Below the pieces are notes generated by a model. It was not told where the DNA came from. It saw only the letters and a program-made list of their open reading frames with translations, and did not search any database. This document shows positions 2-28,386 of a stretch of 28,467 nt of DNA, piece by piece. Position 1 is the stretch's first letter; each line of letters opens with the position of its first letter. Source of the DNA: an uncultured Intrasporangiaceae bacterium (lineage in GTDB: Bacteria; Actinomycetota; Actinomycetes; Actinomycetales; Dermatophilaceae); the NCBI GenBank assembly GCA_964573925.1, contig CAZNLX010000001.1:1-28467 (forward strand), read 5' to 3'. Made by a program: the position numbers and the translations under genes.

Positions 2-448
2 CGCGTCCAGCGCCAGATGCTGCAGGATCTGGGTCGCGAGCCCACCCCGGAGGAGCTGGCCAAGGAACTCGACATGACCCCCGAGAAGGTCGTCGAGGTG
101 CAGAAGTACGGTCGCGAGCCGATCTCCCTGCACACCCCGCTCGGTGAGGACGGCGACAGCGAGTTCGGTGACCTCATCGAGGACTCGGAGGCGGTCGTGC
201 CCGCCGAAGCGGTGTCCTTCACCCTGCTCCAGGAGCAACTCCACTCGGTCCTGGACACCCTTTCCGAGCGCGAGGCGGGCGTCGTCTCGATGCGCTTCGG
301 ACTCACCGACGGCCAGCCCAAGACCCTCGACGAGATCGGCAAGGTCTACGGCGTGACCCGAGAGCGGATTCGCCAGATCGAGTCCAAGACGATGAGCAAG
401 CTGCGGCACCCGTCGCGCTCGCAGGTGTTGCGCGACTATCTGGACTGA
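2..448 (+). CDS. sigA: Principal RNA polymerase sigma-70 factor (SigA/HrdB/RpoD), 3' part only (regions 3-4); 5' end lies outside the window
   Basis: Translation has [39 protein letters not shown], the region 4.2 [23 protein letters not shown] and the group 1 C-terminus [16 protein letters not shown]. The frame is open from base 2. Confidence 0.93.
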
Positions 449-472: not shown

Positions 473-511
473 CGGGAGGGCGGCATACCCCAGGGGTATG
501 CCGCCCTCCCG
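473..511. terminator. Perfect inverted repeat, probable bidirectional terminator between convergent sigA and the transglutaminase gene
   Basis: CGGGAGGGCGGCATACCCC (473-491) is the exact reverse complement of GGGGTATGCCGCCCTCCCG (493-511). It lies 24 nt after the sigA stop and 3 nt before the opposing stop at 515. No U-tract, as is common in actinobacteria. Confidence 0.8.
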
Positions 512-514
512 CGC

Positions 515-2848
515 TCAGCGGCGTCGGCCCCACCACGCGCGGGGCCGCGCGCCGAGCCGACGTCCCAAGGCCCGCCACCAGCGACGGGCGTCGGTGGGCA
601 ACATCGTCGCCCGGATCCGGTGCTGCCAGGACCGGGTCCTCGCGACCTCGTGGAGCACCACCCGAGTGAGCGGTTCGAGGTGCGGGTCGACGAAGGCCCC
701 GGGCCGGGCGTAGCGAGCCCGTTCGACGGTGTCCACGACGGTCGCCAGCGACTGCGTCCCGGTTTCCCCGAGGAAGCCGGCGCGGGCGTAGTGAGCCTGG
801 GCATCGCGCAGCGTCCCCCCGGCAACGGGGGTGACGCCCAGATCGTCCAACCGGCCGGTGAAGGTCTGCCAGTGGGCCTCGGCGATCCGCGCCGGCGGGC
901 CAGGTCGGCCGGCCCGCACCCGGCGTAGCACCGCGGCGGTCACCGGCAGGACAAGGGCGGCCAGGACGACCAGCAGCACGACCAGTCCGAGCAGGTGCGG
1001 GACCTGCAGCACCCAACCGAGGACCCGGTCCAGCACCGGGACGTCGAGGGTGGTGGTCTGTTCGGACGGGGTCTCTCGGTCGGGGCGGTCCCGGTCCCGG
1101 CTGGCTGGGTCGTCGGTGAGCCGGGCCGTCGAGGTCGGCAGCGGTGCGGGGGTGATCGCCGGGAGCGTCCAGGCCGGTGCGTTTCCGGTGCGGACGCTGG
1201 GCGTCGGCTCGAAGCGCACCCAGCCGGCCCCCGGGAAGAACAGTTCGGGCCAGGCGTGGGCGTCGGCGCTGGTCACCGTCCACACGCCGTCCTGCTGGCT
1301 GCCGGGCAGGAAGCCGATAGCCACCCGGGCCGGGATTCCGGCGGCGCGCGCCATCATCGCCATCGTCGAGGCGAACTGGACGCAGTAGCCGCGCTTGGTC
1401 TGCAGGAAGGCGCTGATCGGGTCCGGCCGGGCGCCATTGGACGAGTCCGGCGTCGTCAACGTGAGCGAATAGGTGAACCCGCCCTTGCCGCGCAGCCAGT
1501 CCTGAATCGCCACCGCCTTGTCGTAGGGGGACTGCGACTGCGTGGTCACTGCGTTCGTCGCGTCGCGGATCGCGGCGGCGGACCGAGGATCGACCTCCAG
1601 CGCTGCGGTGATTGCCCGCCCGGTCGGCAGCCGGTCCGGCCCGGGTGAGCCGTCGACGCCGTTGCGCAAGAGGTCCGGGGTGTAGATCGGTTCGAGGTAG
1701 GTCGTTGAGTAGGAAGCGGGCCGGGCCTGCACGTAGACGTCCGAGGTCGACTCGTCCACTTGCCAACCGACCGCATTGAGGTCGGCCGTCGTGATCGGCT
1801 GCGGGGTGGCCAGCGCGGGCGGTTCGAGCGAGTTGTTCTCCACGACGATGGTCCGCTCCGAGCGGGCTACCTCGGGGGAGAGGTCCAGCCGGGCGCTGCG
1901 GCCCAGGGTCGGGTTCGGTCGGCTCCAGGACGTCCCGTCGTATGCCGTCGCCGCGAGGACTCGCAGCGGCGTCGGGCTGGGCGCCGTGCTGCGGTAGGTG
2001 AGAATCCGCCCGGAACCGCCGGCGTTGAGGCTGGTCCCGACGTCCAGGGTCGAGCTGAAGCCGACCTTGGCGTTGCCCCGTCCGTCGGCGCTGCGGGCCA
2101 GTCCGTCCAGCAGGTAGCGGGTCGGCAGATGGGGCAGCACGGCTGGGAGGGCAACCGCGGCGATGAGGCCCACGGCGCCCAGCCGGCGGGCCAGCCCGGC
2201 GAAGCGCAGTTCCGAGGTGGCTCGGGAGGCGCCGATCGCGATGGGTTCCATCGGGCGGACCGCCACCGAGGCCCACCGGCGCATGCCCTGTTGGGCATGC
2301 TGGGCCAGCAGCACCAGCCAGGCGAGGGCGGCGGCCAGGAAGTAGAAGGGGTGCAGGGCCGACCCGCTGTTCGCCGCGGCCGCCAAGAAGGCGGTGAGCA
2401 TCGGCAGACCGGCCGCCGCCGGGGCCCCTCGGGTGACGGCGAGGATGTCGACGAGCAGCACGACGGCCGTTCCGATCAAGGCGAGGGTGACCTCGACCCC
2501 GGTGTTGGCCGGCATCGGTGCCGAGGTGTTCACCGCGGTCGTGCCGAATTCGGCGAACAGGGCACCGAACCGGCGCACCGTGGCCAGAGTGGGCAGGCCG
2601 TACCAAGTGCTGGACCCGGCATACATCCAGACAACGGCGAGCAGGGTGACGACGATCTGGCTCGGCACGACGGCCACGGCGGACCGGGTCCAGAACCGGC
2701 GCACGAGGGCCCCGGCACCGACCGCGAGGACGACCAGCCAGATCGCCCGGGCGAACCAGGTCGTGGTGGCCACGAGGGTGGTCAGGCCGAGCAGCGAGGT
2801 GAGTCCGGCCACCGCAGCGAGGGCGGGGTGGGCTTCGCGGCGGTTCAT
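515..2848 (-). CDS. Membrane-anchored transglutaminase-like protein (TgpA/DUF3488-type), about 777 aa
   Basis: Multiple N-terminal hydrophobic helices, the transglutaminase core GYCVQFASTMAMMARAAGIPARVAIGF...DAHAWPELFFPGAGWVRFEPTP (Cys/His/acidic residue), then a C-terminal TM helix. ATG at 2848 overlaps the DUF58 stop (ATGA). The ORF-track extension to 3415 overlaps DUF58 and is not credible. Confidence 0.88.
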   Translation of the reverse strand: MNRREAHPALAAVAGLTSLLGLTTLVATTTWFARAIWLVVLAVGAGALVRRFWTRSAVAVVPSQIVVTLLAVVWMYAGSSTWYGLPTLATVRRFGALFAEFGTTAVNTSAPMPANTGVEVTLALIGTAVVLLVDILAVTRGAPAAAGLPMLTAFLAAAANSGSALHPFYFLAAALAWLVLLAQHAQQGMRRWASVAVRPMEPIAIGASRATSELRFAGLARRLGAVGLIAAVALPAVLPHLPTRYLLDGLARSADGRGNAKVGFSSTLDVGTSLNAGGSGRILTYRSTAPSPTPLRVLAATAYDGTSWSRPNPTLGRSARLDLSPEVARSERTIVVENNSLEPPALATPQPITTADLNAVGWQVDESTSDVYVQARPASYSTTYLEPIYTPDLLRNGVDGSPGPDRLPTGRAITAALEVDPRSAAAIRDATNAVTTQSQSPYDKAVAIQDWLRGKGGFTYSLTLTTPDSSNGARPDPISAFLQTKRGYCVQFASTMAMMARAAGIPARVAIGFLPGSQQDGVWTVTSADAHAWPELFFPGAGWVRFEPTPSVRTGNAPAWTLPAITPAPLPTSTARLTDDPASRDRDRPDRETPSEQTTTLDVPVLDRVLGWVLQVPHLLGLVVLLVVLAALVLPVTAAVLRRVRAGRPGPPARIAEAHWQTFTGRLDDLGVTPVAGGTLRDAQAHYARAGFLGETGTQSLATVVDTVERARYARPGAFVDPHLEPLTRVVLHEVARTRSWQHRIRATMLPTDARRWWRALGRRLGARPRAWWGRRR

Positions 2849-4188
2849 CGGATCACTCCGGCGCCGGCTCCCACACCGGCTCGCGCCGCGGCTGCCGTGC
2901 CGACCCGGCCCCAGGCCTGGGTCACCGTGTCGGCGGCGGTCACCGCGGTGGCCCGCCAGCCGGCACCGCGCAGAATGTCGACGGCTCGGGCCGCCCCAGC
3001 CCCTGGCCCGCTGGCTGCCGGGTCGCCCGGGTTGGCGGGCCATGGACCGGCGCCGCCGATGCCGCTGGCGCCGCCGCTGCCGCCGGCGAAGGAGGCCGGA
3101 TCCAGGACCAGCCCCACGGCGGTCGCGCCGCCATGACGCAGGGTCGCCACCGACCGTAGGGCGGCCTCGTCGGCCGCGGCCAGGATCGCGACGAGCAAGC
3201 CCCCGCCGGCCAGCAGGCCCTGACCTGACCGAGCCAGGCGAGCCAGGGACAGCGCGTCGTCGAGGGCGGTCACCGCCAGCACGTCCAGTGCGGTGGCCCG
3301 GTCCAGGGGAACCTCGTCGGGACCCTCCCGCACCGTCTCCGGGGTGAGCAGGTGAACGGCATAGCCGAGGGTCCCCAGGTGCACGACGGTCGAGGCCGCC
3401 GCGCTCACCGCCCACTCGAAGGAACTGGCCGGGCCGCTGCCGGCGTGCGCGGCGCTGCGCGGGTCGAGCAGAACCACCGCTCGGCGCCGGGCCGGTCGGT
3501 CCTCCTGACGGACCATGAGTTCACCGGTGCGAGCCGTGGCCGGCCAGTGGATCCGGCGCAGGTCGTCTCCGTCGCGGTACTCCCGGATCGACTGGTCGTC
3601 CTCGCCGTTGAGGGCCACCATGAACGGGATCTCACCTTCGGCGCCCACTCCGGTGCCCGGAGGCCTGGTGCCCCCCAGGGGGTGGACCCGAGGAAGCACG
3701 GTCACTTCGGACGCCGACCCGACCTCGACGAAACGCTGGGTCAACCCGAACGGGTCGCGCAACTGAACGGTGAGCGGACCGAGCAGGTGACGGCCGCGGA
3801 TCGGGGGGCGCACGGCATACGTGACGGCTCGACGCTCCCCGCGGCCGAGCGAGCCGAGCAACACTCGCGGGCGTTCGCCGATGACATAGTCCAAGCGCTC
3901 CTCGGCGAGCATGATCGGGGTCGAGTGCCGGCCACCGTTGGCGATCGTCGTGGTGACTGTCGTCGGGTCGCCGGCGCTCACCTGCGCCGGGTCGGTGGAA
4001 CGGGTGACGACCAGCCCCGGAGGCCGTCGACGGGCCAGCAGCAGGGCCAGCAGCGGCAGGGCCAGCAACAGCACGCCAACCCGGGTGATATCCCGGAAGC
4101 CCAGGAGGTAGCCGCAGACGAGCAGGGTCAGCCCGGCGGACCCGAAGGCCCGACCTCGGGTCGTGAGCACCTCACCGATGCCGCGCAC
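2845..4188 (-). CDS. DUF58 domain protein (MoxR-associated), 447 aa
   Basis: N-terminal TM segment, RGRHLLGPLTVQLRDPFGL, and the DUF58 signature SIREYRDGDDLRRIHWPATARTGELMVRQE. It sits between moxR and the transglutaminase gene, the usual triad. GTG start. Confidence 0.88.
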   Translation of the reverse strand: MRGIGEVLTTRGRAFGSAGLTLLVCGYLLGFRDITRVGVLLLALPLLALLLARRRPPGLVVTRSTDPAQVSAGDPTTVTTTIANGGRHSTPIMLAEERLDYVIGERPRVLLGSLGRGERRAVTYAVRPPIRGRHLLGPLTVQLRDPFGLTQRFVEVGSASEVTVLPRVHPLGGTRPPGTGVGAEGEIPFMVALNGEDDQSIREYRDGDDLRRIHWPATARTGELMVRQEDRPARRRAVVLLDPRSAAHAGSGPASSFEWAVSAAASTVVHLGTLGYAVHLLTPETVREGPDEVPLDRATALDVLAVTALDDALSLARLARSGQGLLAGGGLLVAILAAADEAALRSVATLRHGGATAVGLVLDPASFAGGSGGASGIGGAGPWPANPGDPAASGPGAGAARAVDILRGAGWRATAVTAADTVTQAWGRVGTAAAARAGVGAGAGVIR

Positions 4189-4222
4189 CAGCGACCGCCA
4201 TCCGTATGCCGCCCACCCCGGC

Positions 4223-5261: not shown

Positions 5262-5370
5262 CGGGGACCCCTTGGCCCGCCCGGTCTGGTGAGCATATGT
5301 CGGCGCGCTGGTCCGGGCGGCCGAACCCGAGCACGAAGCCGGAAGCGGGGGCCGGTGCGCGCGGCATACC

Positions 5371-5491: not shown

Positions 5492-5559
5492 GGTATGCCG
5501 CCCCGCCGGGTCGCGTGGGACGGCCCCCTCGGGGGTCGGGAGGGAAGGGGTGGTGCGTC

Positions 5560-6267: not shown

Positions 6268-7257
6268 ATGACCGCCACCCCCGAGCTCGCGCCGCACCAG
6301 CGGCACGTGCCCGTGCTGCGCGAGCGGGTCGTCGAGGTGCTCGGTCCGGCCCTGGCCGCCGACGGCGCGGTCTACGTCGACGGCACCCTCGGCATGGGCG
6401 GCCACGCCGAGAGCGTCCTGCAGGCCTACCCGCGGGCCCGGCTCGTCGGGATCGACCGCGACCCGCAGGCCCTCGAACTGGCCGGGCGCCGGCTGCTGCC
6501 CTTTGCGGACCGGATCACTCTTGTCCACGCCGTCTACGACGAGTTCGCCCAGGTCATTCGCGACCTGGGCATCCCGACCGTCGATGCGGCCCTCTTCGAC
6601 CTCGGGGTCAGCTCACTGCACCTGGACGAGGCCGACCGGGGATTCGCCTACCGAGTCGACGCGCCGCTGGACATGCGGATGGACCAGACCCGGGGTCTCA
6701 CCGCCGCGGACGTCCTCAACACCTACGAGCCCGACCAGTTGGTCCGGATCCTGCGCGACTTCGGCGAGGAGCGCTTCGCTCGGCCGATCGTGCGCGCCGT
6801 GGTCGCTGAGCGCGGCCGGGCTCCGTTCACGTCGTCCGGCCGTCTCGTCGAGTTGCTCCGGAGGGTCGTCCCGGCCGCCTCGCAGCGCAGTGGGGGACAC
6901 CCCGCCAAGCGAACCTTCCAGGCCCTGCGGATCGAGGTCAACGGCGAGTTGGATGCCTGGCGCCGGGCCCTGCCTGCCGCGATCGACCGGCTGAGGGTGG
7001 GCGGCCGAGTGGCCGTGCTGTCCTACCACTCGCTCGAGGACCGGATCACCAAGCAGACCCTCGCCGCCGGGGCCACCTCGCGCACCCCCGCCGGTATGCC
7101 GGTCGAGCGGCCGCAGGACGCGGCATACCTGCGCCCCGTGACCCGCGGAGCCGAGGTGCCCACCGAGGCGGAGATCGCGGCCAACCCGCGCGCCGCGTCG
7201 GCCCGACTGCGAGTGGCGGAGCGAATCCGAGTGACCGACCAGGGGGAGTCACAATGA
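6268..7257 (+). CDS. rsmH: 16S rRNA m4C1402 methyltransferase RsmH (MraW)
   Basis: [77 protein letters not shown]. Confidence 0.97.
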
Positions 7258-9973: not shown

Positions 9974-11563
9974 GTGCGTTCACCCCGGCCGAGTTCGGTC
10001 CCGCCGGTCCCGCTGCAGGTCCTGGCAGCTCGGTCCGGGGCGACCCTGCTCGCCGACGACCCGGCCGGGCACCTCGCCGTCACCGGGGTGAGCCTGGACT
10101 CCCGGACGGTCACCTCCGGCGACCTGTATGCCGCCCTCCCGGGCGCCCGCGCGCACGGTGCCTCCTTCGTCCCGGCCGCCCGGGCTGCCGGCGCGGTTGC
10201 CGTGCTCACCGATCCGGCCGGTGCCGAGACGATCCGCGCCACGACCGCAGGGGCGGACGGCATACCCGTGCTGGTGCACCCGCACCCGCGGGCCGTGCTC
10301 GGCGACCTGGCCGCCCAGATCTACGGTCGCCCGGCCGATCGGCTGCGCGTGGTCGGGATCACCGGCACCAACGGCAAGACGACGACCGCCTACCTCGTCG
10401 AGTCGGCGCTGCGCGCCTTGGGTCGGCGCACCGGGTTGATCGGGACGGTGGAGACCCGGATCGGCGACGAGCGGTTGGCCTCGGTGCGCACCACCCCGGA
10501 GGCGACCGACCTGCACGCCATCCTCGCGGTGATGGCCGAACGCGGCATCGACAGCGTCGTCATGGAGGTGTCCAGCCATGCGCTGGCCCAGCATCGGGTC
10601 GACGGGGTGACCTACGAGGTGGCCCTGTTCACCAACCTGTCCCAGGACCATCTCGACTTCCACTCGACGATGACGGACTACTTCGAGGCCAAGGCGGCCC
10701 TGTTCGCGCCCGCCCGGGCCCGTCATGGCGTGGTCTGCGTGGACGACGACTGGGGTCGCGAGCTCGCGGCGCGACGCGGCATACCGCTGGTCACGGTGGC
10801 GTCCGAGGGGGCGGGGGACTGGACCCTGCACCACGGCGAAGGCCCCGACCTCGTCGTCGCCGGCCCGGACGGCGAACACCTGCACCTCACCTGCCACCTG
10901 CCCGGCACCTTCAACCGGGTCAACACGGCGATGGCCGCCGTCGCCCTGCGACGGCTCGGGTATGCCGCGGCCGACGTCGAACGCGCCATGGCCGCCGAGC
11001 CGGTCGTCCCCGGCCGGATGGAGATCGTGCCCGGCGGGCCGGACGACCCCCGGTGCATCGTCGACTTCGCGCACACTCCGGAAGCGGTCGACGCTGCCCT
11101 CGCCGCGCTGCGTCCCACCACCGTGGGCCTGCTCGTCGCCGTCATCGGCGCGGGCGGTGACCGGGACCGGGGCAAGCGCCGGGGGATGGGCGCCGCCGCG
11201 GCCCGATGGGCCGACGTCGTCTACGTCACCGACGACAACCCCCGCTCCGAGGACCCAGCGGTGATCCGTGAGCAGGTCCTGGCCGGTGCCCGCGAGGCAC
11301 TCGCCGCCGCAGGTGAGGACCCGACGGCGGACCCGGGCGGGGGTCGGCCCCGCGCGCTCACCTCCGACGAAGGCCGCGCCGCTCACATCGCCGCGGCGGT
11401 GGCGGCGGCCCGCCAGGTGCCTGGCTCAACCGTCGCTGTCCTCGGCAAGGGTCACGAGACGGGTCAGGACATCGGTGGCGTCGTCCACCCCTTCGATGAC
11501 CGGGTGGCCCTGGCTGCGGCCCTGCGCGTCCCGGCCGACCCCCGACCCGAGGCCCCGCGATGA
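9974..11563 (+). CDS. murE: UDP-N-acetylmuramoyl-L-alanyl-D-glutamate--2,6-diaminopimelate ligase
   Basis: VSLDSR, GITGTNGKTTT, RTTPE, MEVSSHAL, FTNLSQDHLDFH, PGRME, VDFAHTP, GAGGDRDRGKR, DDNPRSED, GKGHETGQ. Confidence 0.96.
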   Translation: MRSPRPSSVPPVPLQVLAARSGATLLADDPAGHLAVTGVSLDSRTVTSGDLYAALPGARAHGASFVPAARAAGAVAVLTDPAGAETIRATTAGADGIPVLVHPHPRAVLGDLAAQIYGRPADRLRVVGITGTNGKTTTAYLVESALRALGRRTGLIGTVETRIGDERLASVRTTPEATDLHAILAVMAERGIDSVVMEVSSHALAQHRVDGVTYEVALFTNLSQDHLDFHSTMTDYFEAKAALFAPARARHGVVCVDDDWGRELAARRGIPLVTVASEGAGDWTLHHGEGPDLVVAGPDGEHLHLTCHLPGTFNRVNTAMAAVALRRLGYAAADVERAMAAEPVVPGRMEIVPGGPDDPRCIVDFAHTPEAVDAALAALRPTTVGLLVAVIGAGGDRDRGKRRGMGAAAARWADVVYVTDDNPRSEDPAVIREQVLAGAREALAAAGEDPTADPGGGRPRALTSDEGRAAHIAAAVAAARQVPGSTVAVLGKGHETGQDIGGVVHPFDDRVALAAALRVPADPRPEAPR

Positions 11564-13029
11564 TCCCGCTCACCCTCGCCGAGCTCGCCCGAGCCACCGC
11601 CGGCCGGCTACACGACTCCGACGGGGTGCCCGTTCCCCCCGGCAGTGAGGTCTTCGACCTCGTCATCGACGGCCCGGTCGTCACCGACTCCCGGGAGTGC
11701 GGACCGGGTGGTCTCTACGTCGCCCGGATCGGTGAGCACGCCGACGGACACGACTTCGTCGACTCCGCTCGAGCTGCCGGTGCCGTGGCAGCGCTGACCT
11801 CCCGCCCGGTGTCCGGCCTGGCCCACCTCGTCGTCGACGACGTGCAGACCGCTTTCGGGGCGCTGGCCCGAGCCGTGCTCGATGCGGCACCCACGGTGAC
11901 CGTCGTCGGGATCACGGGGTCCTCGGGCAAGACCTCGACGAAGGATCTGCTCGCCCAGGTGTTGGCGACCTCCGGTCCGACGGTGGCCCCGGCGGGGTCG
12001 TTCAACGGCGAGATCGGGGTGCCGCTCACCGTCTGCCGGATCACCCGGGACACCCGCTATCTCGTCGTGGAGCTGGGGGCCCGGGGCGTCGGCCACATCG
12101 AGTACCTCACCCGGATCGCCCCACCGCGGATCGGCGTCGTCCTCAACGTCGGCACCGCGCACGTCGGTGAGTTCGGTGGCCGGGAGAACATTGCCCGGGC
12201 CAAGGGCGAGCTCGTCGAGGCCCTGCCCGAGGACGGCGTCGCGGTGCTCAACGCCGACGACCCCCTGGTGACTGCGATGGGGAGCCGGACCCGGGCCCGG
12301 GTCGTCCTCGTCGGCCTGGCGCCCGGGGCCCGGACGCGGGCCGAGGACGTGACGCTCGACCCGACCAGCCGACCCTCCTTCCGGCTGGTCACCCCCGAGG
12401 GCAGTGCGCCGGTGGCGCTGCGTGTGCACGGCGCCCACCAGATCGGCAACGCCCTTGCCGTGGCGGCGGCCGCACTGGCCTGCGGCCTGCCGCTCGCGCA
12501 GGTTGCCGACGCCTTGTCCTCGGCCGGTGCGGTGAGCCGCTGGCGGATGGAGGTCACCGAGCGCAGCGACGGGGTGACCGTCGTCAACGATGCCTACAAC
12601 GCCAACCCGGACTCGATGGCCGCCGCGCTGGCCGCGCTGGCGGTGATGGCCACCGATGCCCAGGGCCGACGGCGGCGCACCTGGGCGGTTCTCGGGGAGA
12701 TGCTCGAACTCGGGGACGAGTCCCGGCAAGCCCACGCCGGAACAGGTGCTCGAGCCGTCGCCGAGGGGATCGACGTCCTCGTCGCCGTCGGTCCCGGAGC
12801 GGCCGGGATCGCCGAAGGTGCGCGGGAAGCAGTCGCCCGGGCGGCGGGCACGGACGGGTCGCCGACCGAGGTGCTCACCGTGACCGACGCGGATGCGGCA
12901 TACCTGCTGTTGTCCGAGAAACTCCGCCCCGGTGACGTCGTGTTGTTCAAGTCCAGCCGGGATGCCGGACTACGGTGGCTCGGGGACCGCATCTCCGCGA
13001 CGGTCCGAGGGAGCGAGGTCGGGTCGTGA
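11560..13029 (+). CDS. murF: UDP-N-acetylmuramoyl-tripeptide--D-alanyl-D-alanine ligase
   Basis: GITGSSGKTSTKD, SFNGEIGVPLT, VELGARGVGHI, NDAYNANPDSM, LGEMLELG, LFKSSR. ATGA overlap with murE. Confidence 0.96.
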   Translation: MIPLTLAELARATAGRLHDSDGVPVPPGSEVFDLVIDGPVVTDSRECGPGGLYVARIGEHADGHDFVDSARAAGAVAALTSRPVSGLAHLVVDDVQTAFGALARAVLDAAPTVTVVGITGSSGKTSTKDLLAQVLATSGPTVAPAGSFNGEIGVPLTVCRITRDTRYLVVELGARGVGHIEYLTRIAPPRIGVVLNVGTAHVGEFGGRENIARAKGELVEALPEDGVAVLNADDPLVTAMGSRTRARVVLVGLAPGARTRAEDVTLDPTSRPSFRLVTPEGSAPVALRVHGAHQIGNALAVAAAALACGLPLAQVADALSSAGAVSRWRMEVTERSDGVTVVNDAYNANPDSMAAALAALAVMATDAQGRRRRTWAVLGEMLELGDESRQAHAGTGARAVAEGIDVLVAVGPGAAGIAEGAREAVARAAGTDGSPTEVLTVTDADAAYLLLSEKLRPGDVVLFKSSRDAGLRWLGDRISATVRGSEVGS

Positions 13030-14108: not shown

Positions 14109-15667
14109 CCGAGCTGCACGAGCTGGCCGGGTCGGCCGACGACGGCTATGAGCCGCGACCGGGGCTGACCCATCGGGACGCCGACTGGAGCGGCCTGCGG
14201 GTGCTCGTCGCAGGGCTGGGGATCAGTGGCTTTGCCGCAGCCGACGCCCTGTGGGAACGCGGGGCCATCGTCACGGTCGTGGACGCCAGCGCACCGGGCG
14301 CCTCCCGAGCCGTCGATGAGCGGACCCAGATCCTCACCGTTCTCGGTGTGGACGTCCGGCTCGGCGTCGAACACACCCAGGGGCTGCCCACCGATCGGCT
14401 CACCGACCTCGTCGTCACCTCGCCAGGCTGGCGGCCGAGCCAGCCCCTGCTGGCCGAGGCGGCGGCGCGCGGCATACCGGTGTGGGGTGAGGTCGAGTTG
14501 GCCTGGCGGATGCGGCCCGCCCAGGGTGCCGCCCCCTGGCTCACCGTGACCGGAACCAACGGCAAGACGACGACCGTCAACATGCTCGCGAGCATCCTGC
14601 GGGCCGCCGGCCTGCGGGCCACGAGCGCCGGGAACGTCGGCACCCCGCTGCTCGAGGCAGTGCTGCACCCGCAGCCCTACGATGTGCTCGCCGTCGAACT
14701 GTCCAGCTTCCAGTTGCACTGGCAGCGGTCCCTGGCCCCGGTCGCATCGGCCTGCCTCAACGTCGCCGCGGACCACATCGACTGGCACGGCTCGTTCGAG
14801 GAGTACCTGCGCGCCAAGGGACGGGTCTTCCGCAACACCCACCTCGCGTGCATCTACAACGTCGCCGACCCCCTCACCGAGCAACTGGTCATCGACGCCG
14901 ACGTCGTCGAAGGATGCCGGGCGGTCGGCTTCACCCTCGGCGTCCCGGCGCCGTCGATGATCGGTCTGGTCGAGGAGGTCCTGGCCGACCGGGCCTTCGT
15001 CGAGCAGCGTCACCACTCGGCGGCCGAACTGGCCACCATCGCCGATGTCCAGGGCGAGGCCCGCACGATCGCCCCGCACTACCTGGCCAATGCCCTCGCT
15101 GCCGCCGCCCTGGCCCGGGCCTACGGGGTCGGGCCGATCTCGGTCCGCGACGGGTTGCGCGCCTTCCGGCCCGACCCGCACCGGATCGCCGAGGTCGGCA
15201 CCGTCGGCGGGGTTCGCTACGTCAACGACTCCAAGGCGACCAATCCGCACGCCGCCGAGGCCGCGCTGGCCGCCTTCGACAACGTCGTCTGGGTGGCCGG
15301 CGGGCTGCTCAAGGGCGCCGACGTGGACAGCTTGGTGGAGAAGGTGGCCGGCAAACTGCGTGGTGCCGTGCTCATCGGACAGGATCGGGCGCAGGTTGCC
15401 CAGGCGCTGGCCCGACACGCCCCGAATGTCCCCGTCGTCGACGCGGGTGGCCCCGACACTGGAGGAATGCAGCCCACGGGGGAGGACGCCGACGAGATCA
15501 TGGACCGGGTGGTCACCCTCGCGGCGAGCCTGGCGCGCCCGGGTGACGTTGTGCTGCTAGCCCCCGCCGCAGCCTCGATGGACATGTTCGCCAACTACGG
15601 GGAACGTGGTAGCGCCTTCGAACGAGCCGTCGGCCGTCACGCGCACACCCCCGGTTCCCGGCCGTGA
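14105..15667 (+). CDS. murD: UDP-N-acetylmuramoyl-L-alanine--D-glutamate ligase
   Basis: GLGISGFAAA, VTSPGWRP, TGTNGKTTT, ELSSFQL, NVAADHIDWHGS, PHR, NDSKATNPHAA, LAPAAASMDMFANYGERG. ATGA overlap with mraY; the upstream ORF-track extension is spurious. Confidence 0.96.
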   Translation: MTELHELAGSADDGYEPRPGLTHRDADWSGLRVLVAGLGISGFAAADALWERGAIVTVVDASAPGASRAVDERTQILTVLGVDVRLGVEHTQGLPTDRLTDLVVTSPGWRPSQPLLAEAAARGIPVWGEVELAWRMRPAQGAAPWLTVTGTNGKTTTVNMLASILRAAGLRATSAGNVGTPLLEAVLHPQPYDVLAVELSSFQLHWQRSLAPVASACLNVAADHIDWHGSFEEYLRAKGRVFRNTHLACIYNVADPLTEQLVIDADVVEGCRAVGFTLGVPAPSMIGLVEEVLADRAFVEQRHHSAAELATIADVQGEARTIAPHYLANALAAAALARAYGVGPISVRDGLRAFRPDPHRIAEVGTVGGVRYVNDSKATNPHAAEAALAAFDNVVWVAGGLLKGADVDSLVEKVAGKLRGAVLIGQDRAQVAQALARHAPNVPVVDAGGPDTGGMQPTGEDADEIMDRVVTLAASLARPGDVVLLAPAAASMDMFANYGERGSAFERAVGRHAHTPGSRP

Positions 15668-16947
15668 CCAGCACCGTCGAGCGGCCCTCCCCGAGCCGAG
15701 CCCAGCGGGTGGGCGGAGCCCCGGGGACTTGGCTGCCCGAACGGCTCAGGCCCGTTGCCGAGCGCTTCGACAGCCCGGTCACTTCCTACTACGTCCTGCT
15801 CGGGGTGACCACCGCCCTGCTGCTGATCGGCCTGGTCATGGTCCTCTCCGCATCGATGATCACGGCCTACAAGGACGACGGATCCTCCTACGCGGTCTTC
15901 CTCAACCAGGTGAAGTTCGCCGCGCTGGGTCTGGTCGGCTTCGCGGTCGCGTCCCGGCTGAGCATCACCTGGTGGAAGCGGCTGGCCCTGCCGTCCCTGG
16001 CCCTGGCCGTCGTGCTTCAGGCGCTGGTCTTCGTTCCCGCGTTGGGGTTGTCCAAGGGCGGCAACCGCAACTGGCTGCGCCTGGGGGCGGGTCTGTCCCT
16101 GCAGCCCTCGGAACTGACCAAGATTGGGCTCGTCCTGGTCGGTGCGCTCATCCTGTCGAACAAGCGAGCTCTGCTCGGTCGGGCCTCGCACGCCGTCGTG
16201 CCCTATCTCGTCCCGATCGCCGCGGTGACCATCGGGCTCGTCCTGGTCGGTCACGACCTCGGCACGGCCTTGGTCCTCATGGGGATCGTCGGAGCCGTCA
16301 TGTATGCCGCGGGCGTCCCGGCCAGGCTGTTCGTCGCCGCTGCCGGAGTGGTCGCCGCGGTCGCGGTGGCCCTGGTCGTCACCAGTGCCAACCGGATGGA
16401 TCGAATCGGCAACTGGTTGTCCGGCTCGTGCACCGACCCCAACGGAGAGTGCGGCCAATCGGTGCACGGTCTCTACGCCCTTGCCGACGGCGGGTGGTGG
16501 GGCGTCGGGCTCGGGGCCAGCAAGGAGAAGTGGTCCTGGCTGCCCGAGGCCCACAACGACTTCATCTTCGCGATCATCGGCGAGGAACTGGGCCTGCCGG
16601 GCACGTTCGTCATCCTGGCCCTGTTCGGGCTGCTGGCCACGGCCTGCTACCGGATCGTCACCCGCTGCACCGACCAGTTCGTGCGGATCGGGGCCGCCGG
16701 CGCGATGGCATGGATCCTCTTTCAGGCGATGATCAACATCGGTGCCGTGATCGGCCTGCTCCCGGTCATCGGCGTCCCGCTGCCGCTCGTCTCGGCCGGT
16801 GGGTCGGCTCTGGTCACCACTCTGCTGGCGATGGGGATGCTCGTCTCGTTCGCCCGGTCCGAACCGGGGGCGGCCGAGATCCTCGCCGCCCGTCCAGGGG
16901 TGATCCAGCGTTCCCTGGCCGTCCTGCCCCGCCGTCGGCGGGGCTGA
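15664..16947 (+). CDS. ftsW: SEDS peptidoglycan polymerase FtsW
   Basis: GLVMVLSAS, GNRNWL, QPSELTK, DLGTA, WLPEAHNDFIFAIIGEELG, PVIGVPLPLVSAGGS. GTGA overlap with murD. Confidence 0.95.
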   Translation: MTSTVERPSPSRAQRVGGAPGTWLPERLRPVAERFDSPVTSYYVLLGVTTALLLIGLVMVLSASMITAYKDDGSSYAVFLNQVKFAALGLVGFAVASRLSITWWKRLALPSLALAVVLQALVFVPALGLSKGGNRNWLRLGAGLSLQPSELTKIGLVLVGALILSNKRALLGRASHAVVPYLVPIAAVTIGLVLVGHDLGTALVLMGIVGAVMYAAGVPARLFVAAAGVVAAVAVALVVTSANRMDRIGNWLSGSCTDPNGECGQSVHGLYALADGGWWGVGLGASKEKWSWLPEAHNDFIFAIIGEELGLPGTFVILALFGLLATACYRIVTRCTDQFVRIGAAGAMAWILFQAMINIGAVIGLLPVIGVPLPLVSAGGSALVTTLLAMGMLVSFARSEPGAAEILAARPGVIQRSLAVLPRRRRG

Positions 16948-16968: not shown

Positions 16969-18102
16969 ATGTCGTCTGATGTTCCTGCTTCGCACGCCCG
17001 GCCCGCCGAGCGCCCGTTGACCTCCGTCCTGCTCGCCGGGGGTGGTTCGGCAGGGCACGTCTCCCCGCTGCTGGCCACGGCAGACGCGCTGCGCCGCCGG
17101 CTGCCGCAGGTGCGGGTCACCGCCTTGGGCACCAGGACCGGTCTGGAGGCCCGCCTCGTGCCGGCCCGTGGCTACGATCTGCGCTTCGTGCCCCGGGTGC
17201 CGCTGCCCCGGCGCCCCGACGCCCAGGTGCTGCGCTTCCCAGGCGCCCTGCGGGCCGCCGTCGACGCAGCTCTGGCCGCCATCGATGACACCGGAGCGCA
17301 GGTCGTCGTGGGTTTCGGCGGCTACGTCTCCTCGCCGGCCTATCTCGCGGCCAAGCGTCGCGGCATACCGATCGTCGTGCACGAGCAGAATGCGCGGCCC
17401 GGCTTCGCCAACCGCCTCGGCGCGCGGCTGACCCGGCATGTGGCCACCACCTTCCCCAGCACCACGTTGCCGCACGCCACCTGCCTCGGTATGCCGCTGC
17501 GCCGGGAGATCACCACTCTGGACCGGGCGGCGCTGCGGGACCGAGCCAGGGCGGAGTTCGGTCTGGACCGGCACCGGACCACGCTGCTGGTGACCGGCGG
17601 TTCGCTCGGTGCTGCTCGCCTCAACGAGACGATGGCCGCCCGCGCCGCGGAACTCACCGACGCGGGCGTCCAGGTGTTGCACGCCGCGGGGACCGGCAAG
17701 GGCTTCACCCCGAACGTCAGCCCGGGCTCGGCGCCCTATGTCGTGCGTGAATACGTCGACCGGATGGAGTTGGCCTATGCGGCCGCCGACCTCGTGGTCT
17801 GCCGGGCCGGTGCCAACACGGTCTGCGAGTTGACCGCGGTTGGGCTGCCCGCCGTCTACGTCCCGCTGCCGATCGGCAACGGCGAGCAGCGAATCAACGT
17901 CACCGACGTCGTCGCGGCCGGTGGCGGAATCCTCGTCGAGGACGCCGCCCTCACCCCGGTTTGGGTCGATGTCGTCCTCCTGCCGCTGCTCACCGACGAT
18001 GCGCGGATCGCCCGCATGGGCGACGGCGCAGCCGGCCTCGGGCGACGGGACTCCGACGAGGCGCTGGCCGACCTCGTCGTCCGGGCGGCGAGCGGACGAT
18101 GA
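16969..18102 (+). CDS. murG: Lipid II GlcNAc transferase MurG
   Basis: AGGGSAGHVSP, GFGGYVS, HEQNARPGFANR, TGGSLGA, AADLVVCRAGANT, PLPIGNGEQ. Confidence 0.96.
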   Translation: MSSDVPASHARPAERPLTSVLLAGGGSAGHVSPLLATADALRRRLPQVRVTALGTRTGLEARLVPARGYDLRFVPRVPLPRRPDAQVLRFPGALRAAVDAALAAIDDTGAQVVVGFGGYVSSPAYLAAKRRGIPIVVHEQNARPGFANRLGARLTRHVATTFPSTTLPHATCLGMPLRREITTLDRAALRDRARAEFGLDRHRTTLLVTGGSLGAARLNETMAARAAELTDAGVQVLHAAGTGKGFTPNVSPGSAPYVVREYVDRMELAYAAADLVVCRAGANTVCELTAVGLPAVYVPLPIGNGEQRINVTDVVAAGGGILVEDAALTPVWVDVVLLPLLTDDARIARMGDGAAGLGRRDSDEALADLVVRAASGR

Positions 18103-21895: not shown

Positions 21896-22693
21896 ATGTT
21901 CTTCTGGCGTGGGCGCTACGGCACCGTCGAGCTGGCCGTCACCGGTCGGCGCGGCGGCGCGAGTGCTGCCCCGTTCGACGGACTCAACCTCGCCCGCCAC
22001 GTCGGCGATGACCCCCGAGACGTCATGGCCAACCGGGCCGTGCTGGCCGCGCAGCTGCAGCTCCCACCCGAGCGGCTGGTCTTCATGAACCAGTGCCACG
22101 GGGCGGTGGTGCAGGTCGTCGACGGCCCCTGGCCGGCCGAACCGCCAGAGTGCGACGCCGTGGTGACCGCCTCGACCGAGCTCGCGCTGGTGGCCCTCGT
22201 CGCCGACTGCGTCCCGGTCTTGCTGGCCGACCACGATGCCGGGGTCATCGCCGCGGTGCACGCCGGCCGGCCGGGGTTGATGGCCGGGGTGGTGACGGCC
22301 GCATTGGACGCCATGGGCGACCTGGGCGCGCGTGCCCCGCGTGCGGTCGTTGGCCCTTCGATCTGCGGCCGCTGCTACGAGGTTCCGGAGGCGATGCGCC
22401 GGGACGTGGCCCGGATCGTTCCCGAGAGCGCGACGGTCTCCTGGGCCGGCACCCCGGCGGTCGATGTCGCCGCAGGGGTCGTCGCCCAGTTGGCTCGACG
22501 GTCCGTGCCGGTCTCCTGGGTGCCCGGGTGCACCCGCGAGGACGAGCGTCTCTACTCCTACCGGCGCGCGCAGCGGACCGGGCGGTTCGCCGGCGTGGTG
22601 CTGCGCCGAGGCGAACCAAGCCCGGATGGCGATGCCGGCCGGGCGGCATACCCGCAGCTGTGGACCGTCCCGAGCGGGCCGGAGGAACCATGA
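21896..22693 (+). CDS. pgeF: Peptidoglycan editing factor PgeF (YfiH/laccase-like family)
   Basis: LNLARHVGDD, MNQCHG, DAVVT, LVADCVPVLL, AVHAGRPG, GPSICGRCYEV, CTRED..LYSYRR. Canonical position after ftsZ. Confidence 0.92.
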   Translation: MFFWRGRYGTVELAVTGRRGGASAAPFDGLNLARHVGDDPRDVMANRAVLAAQLQLPPERLVFMNQCHGAVVQVVDGPWPAEPPECDAVVTASTELALVALVADCVPVLLADHDAGVIAAVHAGRPGLMAGVVTAALDAMGDLGARAPRAVVGPSICGRCYEVPEAMRRDVARIVPESATVSWAGTPAVDVAAGVVAQLARRSVPVSWVPGCTREDERLYSYRRAQRTGRFAGVVLRRGEPSPDGDAGRAAYPQLWTVPSGPEEP

Positions 22694-23439: not shown

Positions 23440-23519
23440 CGAGCCCAGACCCGTATGCCGTGGCGTTGCCCGGGCAGGCAGGTCGAGATGGCACCGACGG
23501 ACATAAAGGGGATGGGCCC

Positions 23520-25717: not shown

Positions 25718-25957
25718 TCCGGTGACCCGCCGGCGCGACCCTCACGGTCGGCGTATGCCGCCGAGCGCCGCGCGACGTGGGGCCTGGACTTCGGTCCGGG
25801 CCCCACGTCTGTTTCGTGTCCTTGATCACCATCGAGTAACGGCGCGGCGCGTTGTTCGCCCGCATGACTCCCACGATGCGCTTTCGTGGCTTATCCTCGG
25901 GCGCGATCGCCCCTCATTCGAACGGGCGACCGAGACCCGGAAGGGATCCGAGCGGCC

Positions 25958-28282: not shown

Positions 28283-28380
28283 GACGGGTGCGGTCCGCCT
28301 GCCGGACCGGTCGTGCGGCGGATGAGCCGGACCCGCCCGACACGGCTGGCGACACGCGCGGGGGCGTCGGCGGGGCGGCA

Positions 28381-28386
28381 TACAGT
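28381..28386 (+). promoter_or_regulatory. Candidate -10 element (TACAGT) for a leaderless dnaE transcript
   Basis: TANNNT 7 nt before ATG 28394, no SD. It overlaps the octamer CGGCATAC at 28376-28383. Confidence 0.5.

What the first reader, a model, noticed from the sequence alone, without database searches (positions are those of the whole stretch)
473..511. Terminator-like hairpin whose stem is built from two inverted octamers
Seen: a perfect 19-bp inverted repeat between convergent genes, with CGGCATAC (481-488) and GTATGCCG (496-503) as the paired core. Established: inverted uptake-sequence pairs forming terminator stems are a hallmark of DUS/USS genomes. Inference: the motif is co-opted as a building block of terminators, the best single clue to an uptake-sequence-like behaviour.
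Basis: partly seen in the sequence, partly recalled or inferred. Interest (0 to 1): 0.68.

Follow-up and report, generated by a model that had tools for sequence, protein, structure and literature searches.

The report
Hairpin built from hyper-abundant genomic octamer
A very stable hairpin between two convergent genes of a wastewater actinobacterium is made from two inverted copies of an 8-base word (CGGCATAC) that is written into this bacterium's DNA about once per kilobase, even at the cost of rare codons, a pattern so far described only for the DNA-uptake sequences of Neisseria and Haemophilus relatives.

Summary
Positions 473-491 and 493-511 form a perfect 19-nt inverted repeat (about -60 kcal/mol) in the 66-nt spacer between a sigma-70 gene and a convergent tgpA-like gene. 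CGGCATAC and GTATGCCG form its core.

The octamer occurs 29 times in 28.5 kb (0.5 expected). It lies on both strands and in four codon phases. It accounts for all 6 ATA codons in the window.

The source is a Dermatophilaceae bacterium from activated sludge, closest to Ca. Phosphoribacter. Related genomes and 25 unlinked metagenome contigs show the same density of about 1 per kb. Non-motif relatives spell the same codons in the ordinary way. Janibacter and Marihabitans carry a different abundant octamer, CCCTTCGC.

The hairpin is conserved at this locus in species whose TgpA is only 67-69% identical. Similar long-stem pairs lie 3-70 nt from stop codons elsewhere. About 10% of strong 3'-end hairpins contain the pair.

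None has a U-tract, and termination is not shown. DNA uptake is an analogy only and was not tested.

Verdict: a real DUS/USS-like phenomenon, apparently undescribed in Actinobacteria. The hairpin is one conserved use of the word.

The parts
473..511 (.). Hairpin: perfect 19-nt inverted repeat (an 18-bp stem with a 3-nt loop when folded), symmetrical on both strands
   Evidence: Conserved at the same locus in L320, L321 (partial), L325 and L327.
473..491 (+). Left arm CGGGAGGGCGGCATACCCC
   Evidence: Positions 473-489 are invariant in all five aligned orthologous hairpins.
493..511 (+). Right arm GGGGTATGCCGCCCTCCCG
481..488 (+). Octamer copy CGGCATAC in the left arm
496..503 (-). Octamer copy (GTATGCCG on the + strand) in the right arm
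2..448 (+). 3' part of the principal sigma-70 gene (regions 3 and 4). The stop codon is 24 nt before the hairpin.
   Evidence: Full-length orthologues lie in the same position in L323, L324, L327 and L329.
515..2850 (-). tgpA-like transglutaminase gene. The stop codon at 515-517 is 3 nt from the hairpin. The start is approximate.
   Evidence: P0001 is 99% identical and 777 aa long
1940..1947 (-). Octamer in tgpA, sense, codons GCA-TAC (Ala-Tyr)
2617..2624 (+). Octamer in tgpA, antisense, codons TAT-GCC (Tyr-Ala)
3813..3820 (+). Octamer in the DUF58 gene, antisense, TAT-GCC
4204..4211 (-). Octamer in the 34-nt spacer between the moxR stop and the DUF58 start
5362..5369 (+). Octamer in the divergent moxR/mraZ upstream region
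   Evidence: The MoxR length in relatives (304-350 aa) places this copy upstream of the start.
5493..5500 (-). Octamer in the divergent moxR/mraZ upstream region
7094..7101 (-). Octamer in rsmH, codons GGT-ATG-CCG (Gly-Met-Pro)
7121..7128 (+). Octamer in rsmH, GCA-TAC
10126..10133 (-). Octamer in murE, TAT-GCC. It shares the longer arm CCGGGAGGGCGGCATAC with the hairpin.
10258..10265 (+). Octamer in murE, GGC-ATA-CC (Gly-Ile-Pro, rare ATA codon)
10777..10784 (+). Octamer in murE, GGC-ATA-CC. Non-motif relatives have GGC-ATC-CC at this position.
10960..10967 (-). Octamer in murE, TAT-GCC. Conserved in L001, L003 and L011.
12896..12903 (+). Octamer in murF, GCA-TAC. Conserved in L001, L003, L011 and L024.
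14470..14477 (+). Octamer in murD, GGC-ATA-CC. Conserved in six relatives. Most non-motif relatives have ATC (or a Val codon) there.
16302..16309 (-). Octamer in ftsW, ATG-TAT-GCC. Non-motif relatives have CTC-TTC-GCx (Leu-Phe).
17361..17368 (+). Octamer in murG, GGC-ATA-CC
17489..17496 (-). Octamer in murG, GGT-ATG-CCG. Non-motif relatives have GGG or GGC.
18227..18234 (+). Octamer in murC, GGC-ATA-CC
18824..18831 (-). Octamer in murC, TAT-GCC
18946..18953 (+). Octamer in murC, GCA-TAC
19346..19353 (-). Octamer in murC, GTG-TAT-GCC. Non-motif relatives have GTC-TAC-GCC or GTC-TAC-GGC.
22644..22651 (+). Octamer in pgeF, GCA-TAC. In L001 a second inverted copy lies next to it, inside the gene.
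23453..23460 (-). Octamer at the 5' end of sepF, TAT-GCC
25753..25760 (-). Octamer in the spacer after divIVA, 16 nt upstream of a motif-free hairpin at 25777-25806
26814..26821 (-). Octamer in lspA, TAT-GCC
27318..27325 (+). Octamer in lspA, GGC-ATA-CC
28376..28383 (+). Octamer in the rluD-dnaE spacer. It overlaps a -10-like TACAGT at 28381-28386.

Best explanation
Two layers.

(1) Genome layer. CGGCATAC is an exact 8-nt word kept at about one copy per kb on both strands in a clade of Dermatophilaceae. The force that keeps it acts on the DNA sequence, not on the proteins. It is written in wherever coding allows, through synonymous or conservative changes, and it is retained far better than neighbouring sequence. 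The most likely cause is a sequence-specific step in DNA exchange between cells. This could be preferential uptake, as with DUS/USS, or another transfer or translocation step that recognises an 8-bp word. Followed by homologous recombination, such a step steadily replaces word-less alleles with word-bearing ones (molecular drive).

(2) Local layer. In the spacer between the convergent sigma-factor and tgpA genes, two inverted copies plus 8 further paired bases on the outside and 3 on the inside make a very stable hairpin that reads the same on both strands. It most likely works in RNA as a bidirectional 3'-end-forming element. It would either help transcription stop or block 3' exonucleases after factor-dependent termination. 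That would keep the strongly expressed sigma gene and the tgpA operon from reading into each other. An inverted pair also places two copies of the word in DNA that tolerates them.

Shown: the anatomy, the abundance, the action at DNA level, the conservation and the recurrence near stop codons. Inferred: the RNA function and the exchange-linked drive.
For: Abundance and sharpness. There are 29 copies against 0.52 expected. All 8 positions are needed, and one-off variants sit at background level.

Action at DNA level. Copies lie in 4 codon phases in the window and in all 6 phases across 177 kb of unlinked contigs. All 6 ATA codons in the window lie inside the word, as do 20 of 40 in the independent contigs. 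So do 9 of 26 and 72 of 259 TAT codons. At orthologous sites, non-motif relatives carry ATC, GGG/GGC and GTC-TAC, or Val, Phe and Leu.

Maintenance. 14 of 17 sites are identical in L001, against 20.8% of ordinary 8-mers (p=1e-7). In L003 the figure is 7 of 14 (p=0.005).

No strand polarity. The split is 15+/14- in the window, and 69 sense against 74 antisense relative to genes.

Clade pattern. Density is about 1 per kb in the window, L001, L003 and L011, and 0.2-0.7 per kb in other family members. It is about 0 in the Arthrobacter and Streptomyces loci. Flexivirga has CGNCATAC. Janibacter and Marihabitans have CCCTTCGC, with a hairpin pair of their own.

Hairpin. It is extremely stable. The same arms are present in L320, L325 and L327 (twice) although TgpA is only 67-69% identical. 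The loop and inner stem differ (CCC/GGG against CGA/TCG) and the spacer flanks have diverged. Intergenic pairs have stems of 12-24 bp lying 3-70 nt from stop codons. Pairs inside genes have bare 8-10 bp stems. In L012 a 17-bp-stem pair starts 9 nt after the rluD stop. Other 3' hairpins in this family also lack U-tracts.

RNA. The only near-exact transcript contig ends at 489, and depth is 0 beyond 518.

Literature. DUS/USS pairs form terminator hairpins. 55% of Neisseria terminators and 17-29% of Pasteurellaceae terminators contain one (PMC1852404).
Against: No U-tract follows the hairpin on either strand, and the consensus terminator scan finds none. Mycobacterial RNA polymerase needs a U-tract in vitro (PMC3993855), so true intrinsic termination is doubtful.

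The RNA evidence is a single 151-nt contig from a run of uncertain type.

The outer stem never varies among orthologues, so there is no covariation to prove an RNA structure as opposed to conservation of the DNA sequence.

Only about 10% of 3'-end hairpins that were not selected for the pair use the word.

Nothing here shows competence, uptake or transfer. The two Phosphoribacter/Dermatophilaceae genome papers do not mention competence or pili.

One-off variants are not enriched. From memory, they are enriched in Haemophilus influenzae.

Neighbouring copies alternate in orientation more than chance would give. The DUS/USS model does not predict this.

The test for depletion of the motif in viral or mobile DNA was inconclusive.
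Confidence: 0.45

Rival explanations
1. The octamer is a binding or recognition site for a process inside the cell. Candidates are a nucleoid-associated protein, a repair or recombination factor, or a 'self' mark read by a defence system. Ordinary selection would keep each copy, with no role for DNA exchange. The hairpin would then be a terminator-like stem that happens to include two such sites.
For: Recognition is exact over 8 nt with no enriched one-off variants. Many sites are strongly conserved in position. Neighbouring copies alternate in orientation at all distances, 115 against 66. That suggests each orientation matters separately. Different lineages have unrelated words, which fits a fast-evolving DNA-binding specificity.
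Against: Selection at roughly 4,000 individual sites per genome, strong enough to impose rare codons and amino-acid changes, is a heavy load. There is no clustering at regulatory regions, and 76% of copies lie in coding sequence. No candidate protein is known. The same statistics are the accepted signature of uptake sequences (PMC1852404; bioRxiv 10.1101/2025.10.24.684340).
Confidence: 0.22
2. The word is the product of a biased mutation or repair process tied to DNA modification. An example would be a methyltransferase together with a very-short-patch-type mismatch repair enzyme that corrects near-matches to the canonical word. This has been proposed for the cyanobacterial HIP1 palindrome (from memory).
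For: One-off variants are not enriched, and a corrector would remove them. Copies lie at all codon phases and on both strands. The distribution across the family is patchy and graded, as expected if a gene system is gained and lost.
Against: The word is not palindromic. Correcting every kind of mismatch over 8 positions is beyond any known short-patch system. Such processes give modest enrichments, not the roughly 60-fold seen here. Extended-stem pairs concentrate at gene ends, which a purely mutational process does not explain.
Confidence: 0.13
3. The word is the recognition sequence of an FtsK/SpoIIIE/TraB-type double-strand DNA translocase of a conjugative element. By analogy with KOPS, SRS and the Streptomyces TraB clt repeats (all 8-bp words; from memory), chromosomal DNA carrying it would be mobilised preferentially.
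For: The word is exactly 8 nt long. The lineage is actinobacterial, where TraB-type conjugation is known (memory). Exchange-linked drive would account for the abundance and the rare codons.
Against: There is no strand polarity, unlike KOPS and SRS. There are no clusters of direct repeats like a clt locus. No translocase gene was examined.
Confidence: 0.1
4. The hairpin is a copy of a small mobile or REP-like palindromic element, and the octamer is only its core.
For: L327 has two copies of the hairpin flanking an inserted amidohydrolase gene. Some contigs hold hairpins with similar arms: L199 has two, and L102 resembles L198.
Against: 22 of 29 copies are bare octamers inside genes, created by point substitutions and not by insertions. 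The 16-nt arm GGGAGGGCGGCATACC occurs only at the orthologous sigA/tgpA locus among all loci held. There is no Rfam match.
Confidence: 0.04

Closest known systems
DNA uptake sequences: DUS of Neisseriaceae (GCCGTCTGAA core) and USS of Pasteurellaceae (AAGTGCGGT core)
   Same: A short exact word at about 1 per kb on both strands without polarity. It sits inside genes in the cheapest reading frames and reshapes codons and some amino acids. Positions are conserved between related species. Variants are lineage-specific. There is an excess of closely spaced inverted pairs that form hairpins just after genes (PMC1852404; bioRxiv 10.1101/2025.10.24.684340; PMC2817400 abstract).
   Different: The phylum is different: high-GC Gram-positive Actinomycetota. 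The word is 8 nt, not 9-12. Uptake, competence and a receptor are untested. The hairpins have no U-tract. Only about 10% of 3' hairpins carry the word, against 17-55%. About a quarter of copies are intergenic, against about half. One-off variants are not enriched. Neighbouring copies alternate in orientation. The sister-lineage word (CCCTTCGC) is unrelated, not a one- or two-base dialect.
HIP1, the highly iterated palindrome GCGATCGC of cyanobacteria
   Same: An octamer at about 1 per kb, in coding and non-coding DNA, patchy among lineages, with unknown function (from memory).
   Different: HIP1 is a palindrome and has been linked to methyltransferase sites. CGGCATAC is asymmetric, and no link to modification has been tested.
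U-less ('I-shaped') GC-rich 3' hairpins of high-GC Actinobacteria
   Same: A strong GC-rich stem-loop a few to a few tens of nucleotides after a stop codon, without a U-tract. Other genes in the window (after divIVA, 25777-25806) and non-motif relatives have such hairpins.
   Different: In this one the stem sequence is conserved and built from the genome's abundant word. Whether such hairpins terminate at all is disputed: mycobacterial RNA polymerase needs a U-tract in vitro (PMC3993855).
Polar 8-bp words read by DNA motors or nucleases: Chi, KOPS, SRS and TraB clt repeats
   Same: A short, exactly defined word about 8 nt long that is over-represented in the chromosome.
   Different: Those words are strand-skewed with replication or clustered as direct repeats, and far less dense. 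Here both strands are equal (15/14; 69/74).

Membership tests
DNA uptake sequences (DUS/USS) | Short exact motif present hundreds to thousands of times per genome (about 1 per kb) | tested here: met
   1.02 per kb in the window. 1.0-1.4 per kb in 177 kb from 25 unlinked contigs. 0.9-1.5 per kb in L001, L003, L011, L320-L323, L325, L327 and L328. A whole-genome count was not possible.
DNA uptake sequences (DUS/USS) | Both orientations equally frequent, with no replication or transcription polarity | tested here: met
   15+/14- in the window. 69 sense against 74 antisense to genes.
DNA uptake sequences (DUS/USS) | Copies inside genes sit in preferred, low-cost frames and alter codon or residue choice | tested here: met
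   Tyr-Ala 56 and Ala-Tyr 50 of 143 copies. ATA and TAT codons are captured by the motif. Orthologue comparison.
DNA uptake sequences (DUS/USS) | Excess of close inverted pairs forming hairpins downstream of genes | tested here: met
   About 10% of strong 3' hairpins not selected for the pair carry it.
DNA uptake sequences (DUS/USS) | DNA carrying the motif is taken up or transforms preferentially | not testable with these tools
   This needs uptake or transformation assays in a cultured motif-bearing strain.
DNA uptake sequences (DUS/USS) | Competence machinery and a motif-specific receptor are encoded | not testable with these tools
The genome papers are silent on this.
DNA uptake sequences (DUS/USS) | Motif depleted in phage or recently acquired DNA | tested here: inconclusive
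   0 of 119 viral stretches are motif-rich against 25 of 120 metagenome stretches, but only one viral locus has GC >= 0.66. The longest motif-free gap encodes housekeeping genes.
Canonical intrinsic (Rho-independent) terminator | GC-rich hairpin shortly after a stop codon | tested here: met
   24 nt after the sigA stop and 3 nt after the tgpA stop.
Canonical intrinsic (Rho-independent) terminator | U-rich tract of about 7-9 nt immediately 3' of the stem | tested here: not met
   The + strand continues GCGCTCAGCGG and the - strand continues GACTGCGGTGA. The scan found 0 terminator-like sites in 1-6300.
Canonical intrinsic (Rho-independent) terminator | Transcript 3' ends map at the hairpin | tested here: inconclusive
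   One near-exact contig ends at 489 and there is no depth beyond 518. The other contigs come from other organisms.
REP/BIME or MITE-type palindromic repeat | Copies confined to intergenic DNA, with the whole palindromic unit repeated at many loci | tested here: not met
   22 of 29 copies lie in coding sequence as bare octamers. The 16-nt arm occurs only at the orthologous locus.
Polar motifs (Chi, KOPS/SRS) | Strong strand skew | tested here: not met
HIP1-type highly iterated palindrome | The motif is its own reverse complement | tested here: not met
   CGGCATAC and GTATGCCG differ.
Known structured RNA family | Match to an Rfam covariance model | tested here: not met
   0 matches in the whole window at gathering thresholds.

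The most novel reading that the evidence does not exclude
Dermatophilaceae (the Tetrasphaera/Phosphoribacter group, Flexivirga, Janibacter and others) possess a previously unrecognised system of sequence-specific DNA exchange, the first outside Neisseriaceae and Pasteurellaceae and the first in Gram-positive bacteria. Its specificity word has been replaced wholesale between sister lineages: CGGCATAC, CGNCATAC and CCCTTCGC. The alternating orientation of neighbouring copies points to an orientation-dependent mechanism that differs from DUS/USS uptake.
Probability: 0.3. Interest if true: 0.9.

Novelty: new variant of a known kind. Interest (0 to 1): 0.72.

Why it matters
Uptake-sequence-like words have been described in only two proteobacterial families. 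They are the clearest case of a genome-wide sequence feature shaped by genetic exchange rather than by gene function. Finding the same signature in high-GC actinobacteria would have three consequences.

(a) It suggests that self-preferring DNA exchange is more widespread than thought. The affected organisms include the dominant phosphorus-removing bacteria of wastewater plants.

(b) It gives a simple sequence tag for binning and tracking these lineages and for spotting foreign DNA in their genomes.

(c) It offers cultured strains in which the mechanism can be tested: Flexivirga caeni BO-16, strain CA-103832, and Janibacter/Marihabitans for the second word.

For annotation, it explains otherwise puzzling rare codons (ATA, TAT) and conserved U-less hairpins at gene ends in these genomes.

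Tried and rejected
- Exact search for the hairpin in representative genomes: no hit.
- Literature searches for either octamer, for uptake sequences in Actinobacteria and for competence in Tetrasphaera: nothing relevant.
- An apparent third motif, CGACCAAG in L018: rejected, because it is a tandem coding repeat on one strand.
- REP/MITE reading: rejected.
- Chi/KOPS reading: rejected for lack of strand skew.
- Known RNA family: none.
- Canonical terminator: not called, no U-tract.
- Covariation analysis of the orthologous hairpins: uninformative, because the outer stem is invariant.
- Viral-contig scan for motif-rich phages: inconclusive, because almost no high-GC viral loci were returned.
- Search for mobile DNA in motif-free gaps: the longest gap holds a symporter and an acetyl-CoA synthetase.
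- Metatranscriptome contigs: mostly conserved sigA from other organisms, with only one near-exact contig.
- My first permutation test for orientation alternation was biased by how the anchor pairs were excluded. I rely instead on the binned counts for spacings of 60 nt or more.
Full report
**What is there.** Positions 473-491 (CGGGAGGGCGGCATACCCC) and 493-511 (GGGGTATGCCGCCCTCCCG) are perfectly complementary with one base between them. On either strand the 76-nt stretch 455-530 containing them folds as RNA with an 18-bp stem and a 3-nt loop. The energies are about -60 kcal/mol, with z-scores of -7.4 and -9.4 against dinucleotide shuffles. The element fills most of a 66-nt spacer. On one side is the stop codon of a principal sigma-70 gene (+ strand, stop 446-448; Pfam regions 3 and 4). 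On the other is the stop codon of a convergent TgpA-like transglutaminase gene (- strand, stop 515-517).

**The octamer is the larger finding.** CGGCATAC occurs 29 times in 28,467 bases, 15 on the + strand and 14 on the - strand. The expected count is 0.52, and no shuffle gave more than 4. Among strand-merged 8-mers it ranks second, behind only the all-G/C word CGCCGCCG, in a 71.6% G+C sequence. All eight positions are required. GGCATAC almost never occurs without the leading C, or CGGCATA without the trailing C. Single-mismatch variants occur at the same level as in relatives that lack the motif. Flanking preferences are weaker: G before the word in 22 of 29 copies and C after it in 17 of 29.

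**Gene context.** Pfam scans give the following map:
- the 3' end of sigA
- convergent tgpA-DUF58-moxR
- then mraZ, rsmH, ftsL, ftsI, murE, murF, mraY, murD, ftsW, murG, murC, ftsQ, ftsZ, pgeF, yggS, sepF, yggT and divIVA
- a DksA/TraR-type zinc-finger gene, lspA and rluD
- the start of dnaE

Twenty-two copies lie inside genes and seven lie in the roughly 5% of the window that is non-coding. The coding copies use four phases:
- GGC-ATA-CC (Gly-Ile-Pro), 6 copies
- GCA-TAC (Ala-Tyr), 5 copies
- TAT-GCC (Tyr-Ala), 9 copies
- GGT-ATG-CCG (Gly-Met-Pro), 2 copies

All six ATA codons among roughly 9,000 codons in the window are inside the word, as are 9 of the 26 TAT codons. The constraint is therefore on the DNA word, not on a peptide.

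**Source and relatives.** The window is held by many activated-sludge and wastewater metagenomes. FtsZ-anchored loci from species-representative genomes put it next to Candidatus Phosphoribacter hodrii (L001). FtsZ is 99% identical, but nucleotide identity over 17 kb is only about 77-79%.

The word's density varies across loci:

| Locus | Copies per kb |
|---|---|
| L001 | 1.19 |
| L003 | 1.0 |
| L011 | 0.96 |
| L024 | 0.67 |
| L012 (cultured strain CA-103832) | 0.62 |
| L034 (Flexivirga caeni) | 0.55 |
| several other Dermatophilaceae | 0.2-0.5 |
| Janibacter, Piscicoccus, Dermacoccus, Marihabitans, and the Arthrobacter, Streptomyces, Cellulomonas and Rothia loci | 0.2 or less, most 0-0.1 |

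A rough concatenated-protein tree makes the window, L001, L003 and L011 one clade at about 1 per kb. Elsewhere in the family the distribution is patchy. In Flexivirga the third position is free: CGNCATAC occurs 23 times in 14.6 kb. Janibacter (L004) and Marihabitans (L027) instead carry CCCTTCGC. It is dispersed on both strands, with 15 and 13 copies against 0.74 expected, and some copies lie at orthologous positions.

**Independent replication.** I scanned metagenome contigs for CGGCATAC-N(0-30)-GTATGCCG. Of these, 25 are motif-rich (66-73.5% G+C, at least 0.6 additional copies per kb). They come from unrelated genome regions and total 177 kb. With the anchoring pairs removed, density is 1.0 per kb in called genes and 1.4 per kb outside them. 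All six phases are used, and the two cheapest dominate: Tyr-Ala 56 and Ala-Tyr 50 of 143. Half of all ATA codons (20 of 40) and 28% of TAT codons (72 of 259) in these contigs lie in the word. A matched set of non-motif relatives has 17 ATA and 54 TAT codons in the same number of codons.

**Origin and maintenance of sites.** Column-by-column comparison of orthologous positions shows the sites arise by point changes, not insertions:
- Motif genomes have CGGCATACC where others have CGGCATCCC.
- They have GGTATGCCG where others have GGGATGCCG or GGCATGCCG.
- They have GTGTATGCCG where others have GTCTACGCCG or GTCTACGGCG.
- In ftsW they have ATG/CTG-TAT-GCC where others have CTC-TTC-GCx (Phe to Tyr).
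- In murG they have Ile (ATA) where others have Val.

Fourteen of the 17 alignable window sites are identical in L001, whereas only 20.8% of all other 8-mers are (p=1e-7). In L003 the figure is 7 of 14 against 17% (p=0.005). The word is therefore actively maintained across deep divergence.

**The hairpin as a class.** Tight CGGCATAC...GTATGCCG pairs in the motif-rich contigs fall into two classes.
- Pairs inside genes have bare 8-10 bp stems.
- Intergenic pairs have stems extended to 12-24 bp and lie 3-70 nt from a stop codon. Several sit between convergent genes: L174 (15 and 35 nt from the two stops), L102 (27 and 33 nt) and the window (24 and 3 nt).

Pairs in the opposite order (GTATGCCG...CGGCATAC) were not selected for, yet they also occur as long-stem hairpins after genes. 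Examples are L012 (17-bp stem starting 9 nt after the rluD stop), L125 and L194. Among the strong hairpins within 90 nt of called stop codons, excluding those picked by the pair search itself, roughly one in ten carries the word in both arms. The rest, such as the 14-bp hairpin after divIVA at 25777-25806, do not. None has a U-tract, and the same holds in non-motif relatives. The Janibacter word forms a comparable hairpin about 14 nt after a stop codon.

**Conservation of this particular hairpin.** TgpA homologues led to syntenic loci.
- In L320, L325 and L327 TgpA is 67-69% identical to the window's. In all three the spacer next to the sigma gene holds a hairpin with the same arms, GCGGGAGGGCGGCATACC and GGTATGCCGCCCTCC. 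The loop and innermost stem differ (CCC/GGG in the window, CGA/TCG in L320 and L325), and the surrounding spacer is otherwise unalignable.
- The L321 contig ends inside the left arm.
- In L327 an amidohydrolase gene lies between tgpA and sigA, and a copy of the hairpin sits on each side of it.
- More distant motif-rich relatives have unrelated hairpins or tandem repeats in that spacer (L322, L323, L328).
- So do the relatives with lower word density, L324 and L329.
- The 16-nt arm is found nowhere else among all loci held, so this is a locus-specific conserved element, not a dispersed repeat.
- Because the outer stem never varies, there is no covariation to count.

**What could not be shown.** The consensus terminator scan finds nothing in 1-6300, because no T-run follows the stem. 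Rfam has no match in the window. Metatranscriptome contigs laid on 1-1400 are mostly sigA from other organisms. The one near-exact contig ends at 489, inside the hairpin, and depth is zero beyond 518. That fits a 3' end at the hairpin but is not proof. Mycobacterial RNA polymerase needs a U-tract for intrinsic termination in vitro (PMC3993855). So the hairpin may act as a barrier to 3' exonucleases or as a helper of factor-dependent termination, and not as a classical terminator. A viral-contig scan gave no motif-rich contig but almost no high-GC contigs either. The longest motif-free gaps encode ordinary genes. Competence genes could not be examined, and the two genome papers on these organisms do not mention them.

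**An unexplained feature.** Neighbouring copies lie on opposite strands more often than chance predicts. The window has 20 alternating against 8 same-strand pairs. The independent contigs have 115 against 66 for spacings of 60 nt or more, and the excess holds in every distance bin, including beyond 1 kb. Gene strand does not explain it, since copies are 69 sense and 74 antisense. Each orientation may be spaced out separately, which would imply an orientation-dependent function.

[quoted passage not shown] About 55% and 17-29% of their terminators, respectively, contain the word (PMC1852404). A 2025 survey of 177 genomes reports that about half of all such sequences, and over 90% of inverted pairs, lie in predicted terminators. 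It also reports that coding copies favour low-cost frames, and it treats these two families as the only ones known (bioRxiv 10.1101/2025.10.24.684340).

The present case matches on density, strand symmetry, frame bias, positional conservation, lineage variants and hairpin pairs. It differs in the following ways:
- the phylum
- word length (8 nt)
- lack of U-tracts
- a lower share of copies in hairpins
- the absence of enriched one-off variants
- the orientation alternation
- the unrelated word in a sister lineage

No paper in the searchable library links either octamer to these taxa.

**Verdict.** The word behaves like an uptake sequence in every statistical respect I could test, and it is repeatedly used in conserved gene-end hairpins. 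Termination and uptake themselves remain untested. I rate this a new variant of a known kind, of high interest because it is experimentally testable in cultured relatives.

Noticed in passing
L004 (Ca. Janibacter merdipullorum) and L027 (Marihabitans asiaticum), whole loci; pair at L004 17914-17938: A different dispersed octamer, CCCTTCGC/GCGAAGGG, lies on both strands: 15 and 13 copies per 21 kb against 0.74 expected. Some copies are at orthologous positions. An inverted pair forms a hairpin about 14 nt after a stop codon.
   Followed up: partly
L034 (Flexivirga caeni BO-16), whole locus: The third position of the word is free here. CGGCATAC occurs 8 times, CGCCATAC 6, CGTCATAC 7 and CGACATAC 2, for 23 copies in 14.6 kb. 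This looks like a degenerate dialect.
   Followed up: partly
window, all 29 copies; 25 motif-rich loci among L081-L200: Neighbouring copies alternate in strand more often than chance: 20 against 8 in the window, and 115 against 66 in independent contigs, at all spacings. This is unexplained.
   Followed up: partly
L327 2620-2680 and 4620-4680: An amidohydrolase gene is inserted between tgpA and sigA, and a copy of the same motif-built hairpin sits on each side. The hairpin may have been duplicated by, or served as the site of, the insertion.
   Followed up: partly
L328 6375-6578; L329 6354-6637: In these relatives the tgpA-sigA spacer holds tandem repeats instead of the hairpin. L328 has about 57 nt repeated 3 times, each unit with CGGCATAC in direct orientation. 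L329 has about 80 nt repeated 3 times without the word.
   Followed up: no
window 25777-25806: A clean 14-bp GC-rich hairpin (GTGGGGCCTGGAC-TTCG-GTCCGGGCCCCAC) lies 60 nt after the divIVA stop. It has no octamer in its stem and no U-tract. A single octamer copy lies 16 nt upstream, at 25753.
   Followed up: partly
window 28376-28396: The last octamer copy overlaps a -10-like TACAGT (28381-28386) that ends 7 nt before the dnaE ATG, which suggests a leaderless dnaE mRNA. L012 and L024 have TAGAAT at the same place.
   Followed up: partly
L321, last 20 bases (8339-8358): The contig ends inside the left arm of the orthologous hairpin. The assembly probably broke at the strong inverted repeat.
   Followed up: no
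L174 near 4911 (- strand) and 8122 (+ strand): A second, unrelated long hairpin (GAAACGTGAGAGTCTGCACCG...CGGTGCAGACTCTCACGTTTC) occurs at two gene ends in one contig. It may be a separate repeat family.
   Followed up: no
L014 (Arthrobacter sp. NPDC097144), whole locus: The palindrome TGCCGGCA occurs 8 times in 21 kb, about 16-fold over the pooled background.
   Followed up: no
L018 15566-16167: A Lys/Ala/Thr-rich tandem coding repeat (CGACCAAGGC units) mimics an over-represented word. It was excluded as a motif.
   Followed up: yes
window 20463-20690: The mechanical ftsZ ORF starts at a TTG 220 nt upstream of the conserved N-terminus ([14 protein letters not shown]...). The real start is probably the GTG near 20680.
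   Followed up: no
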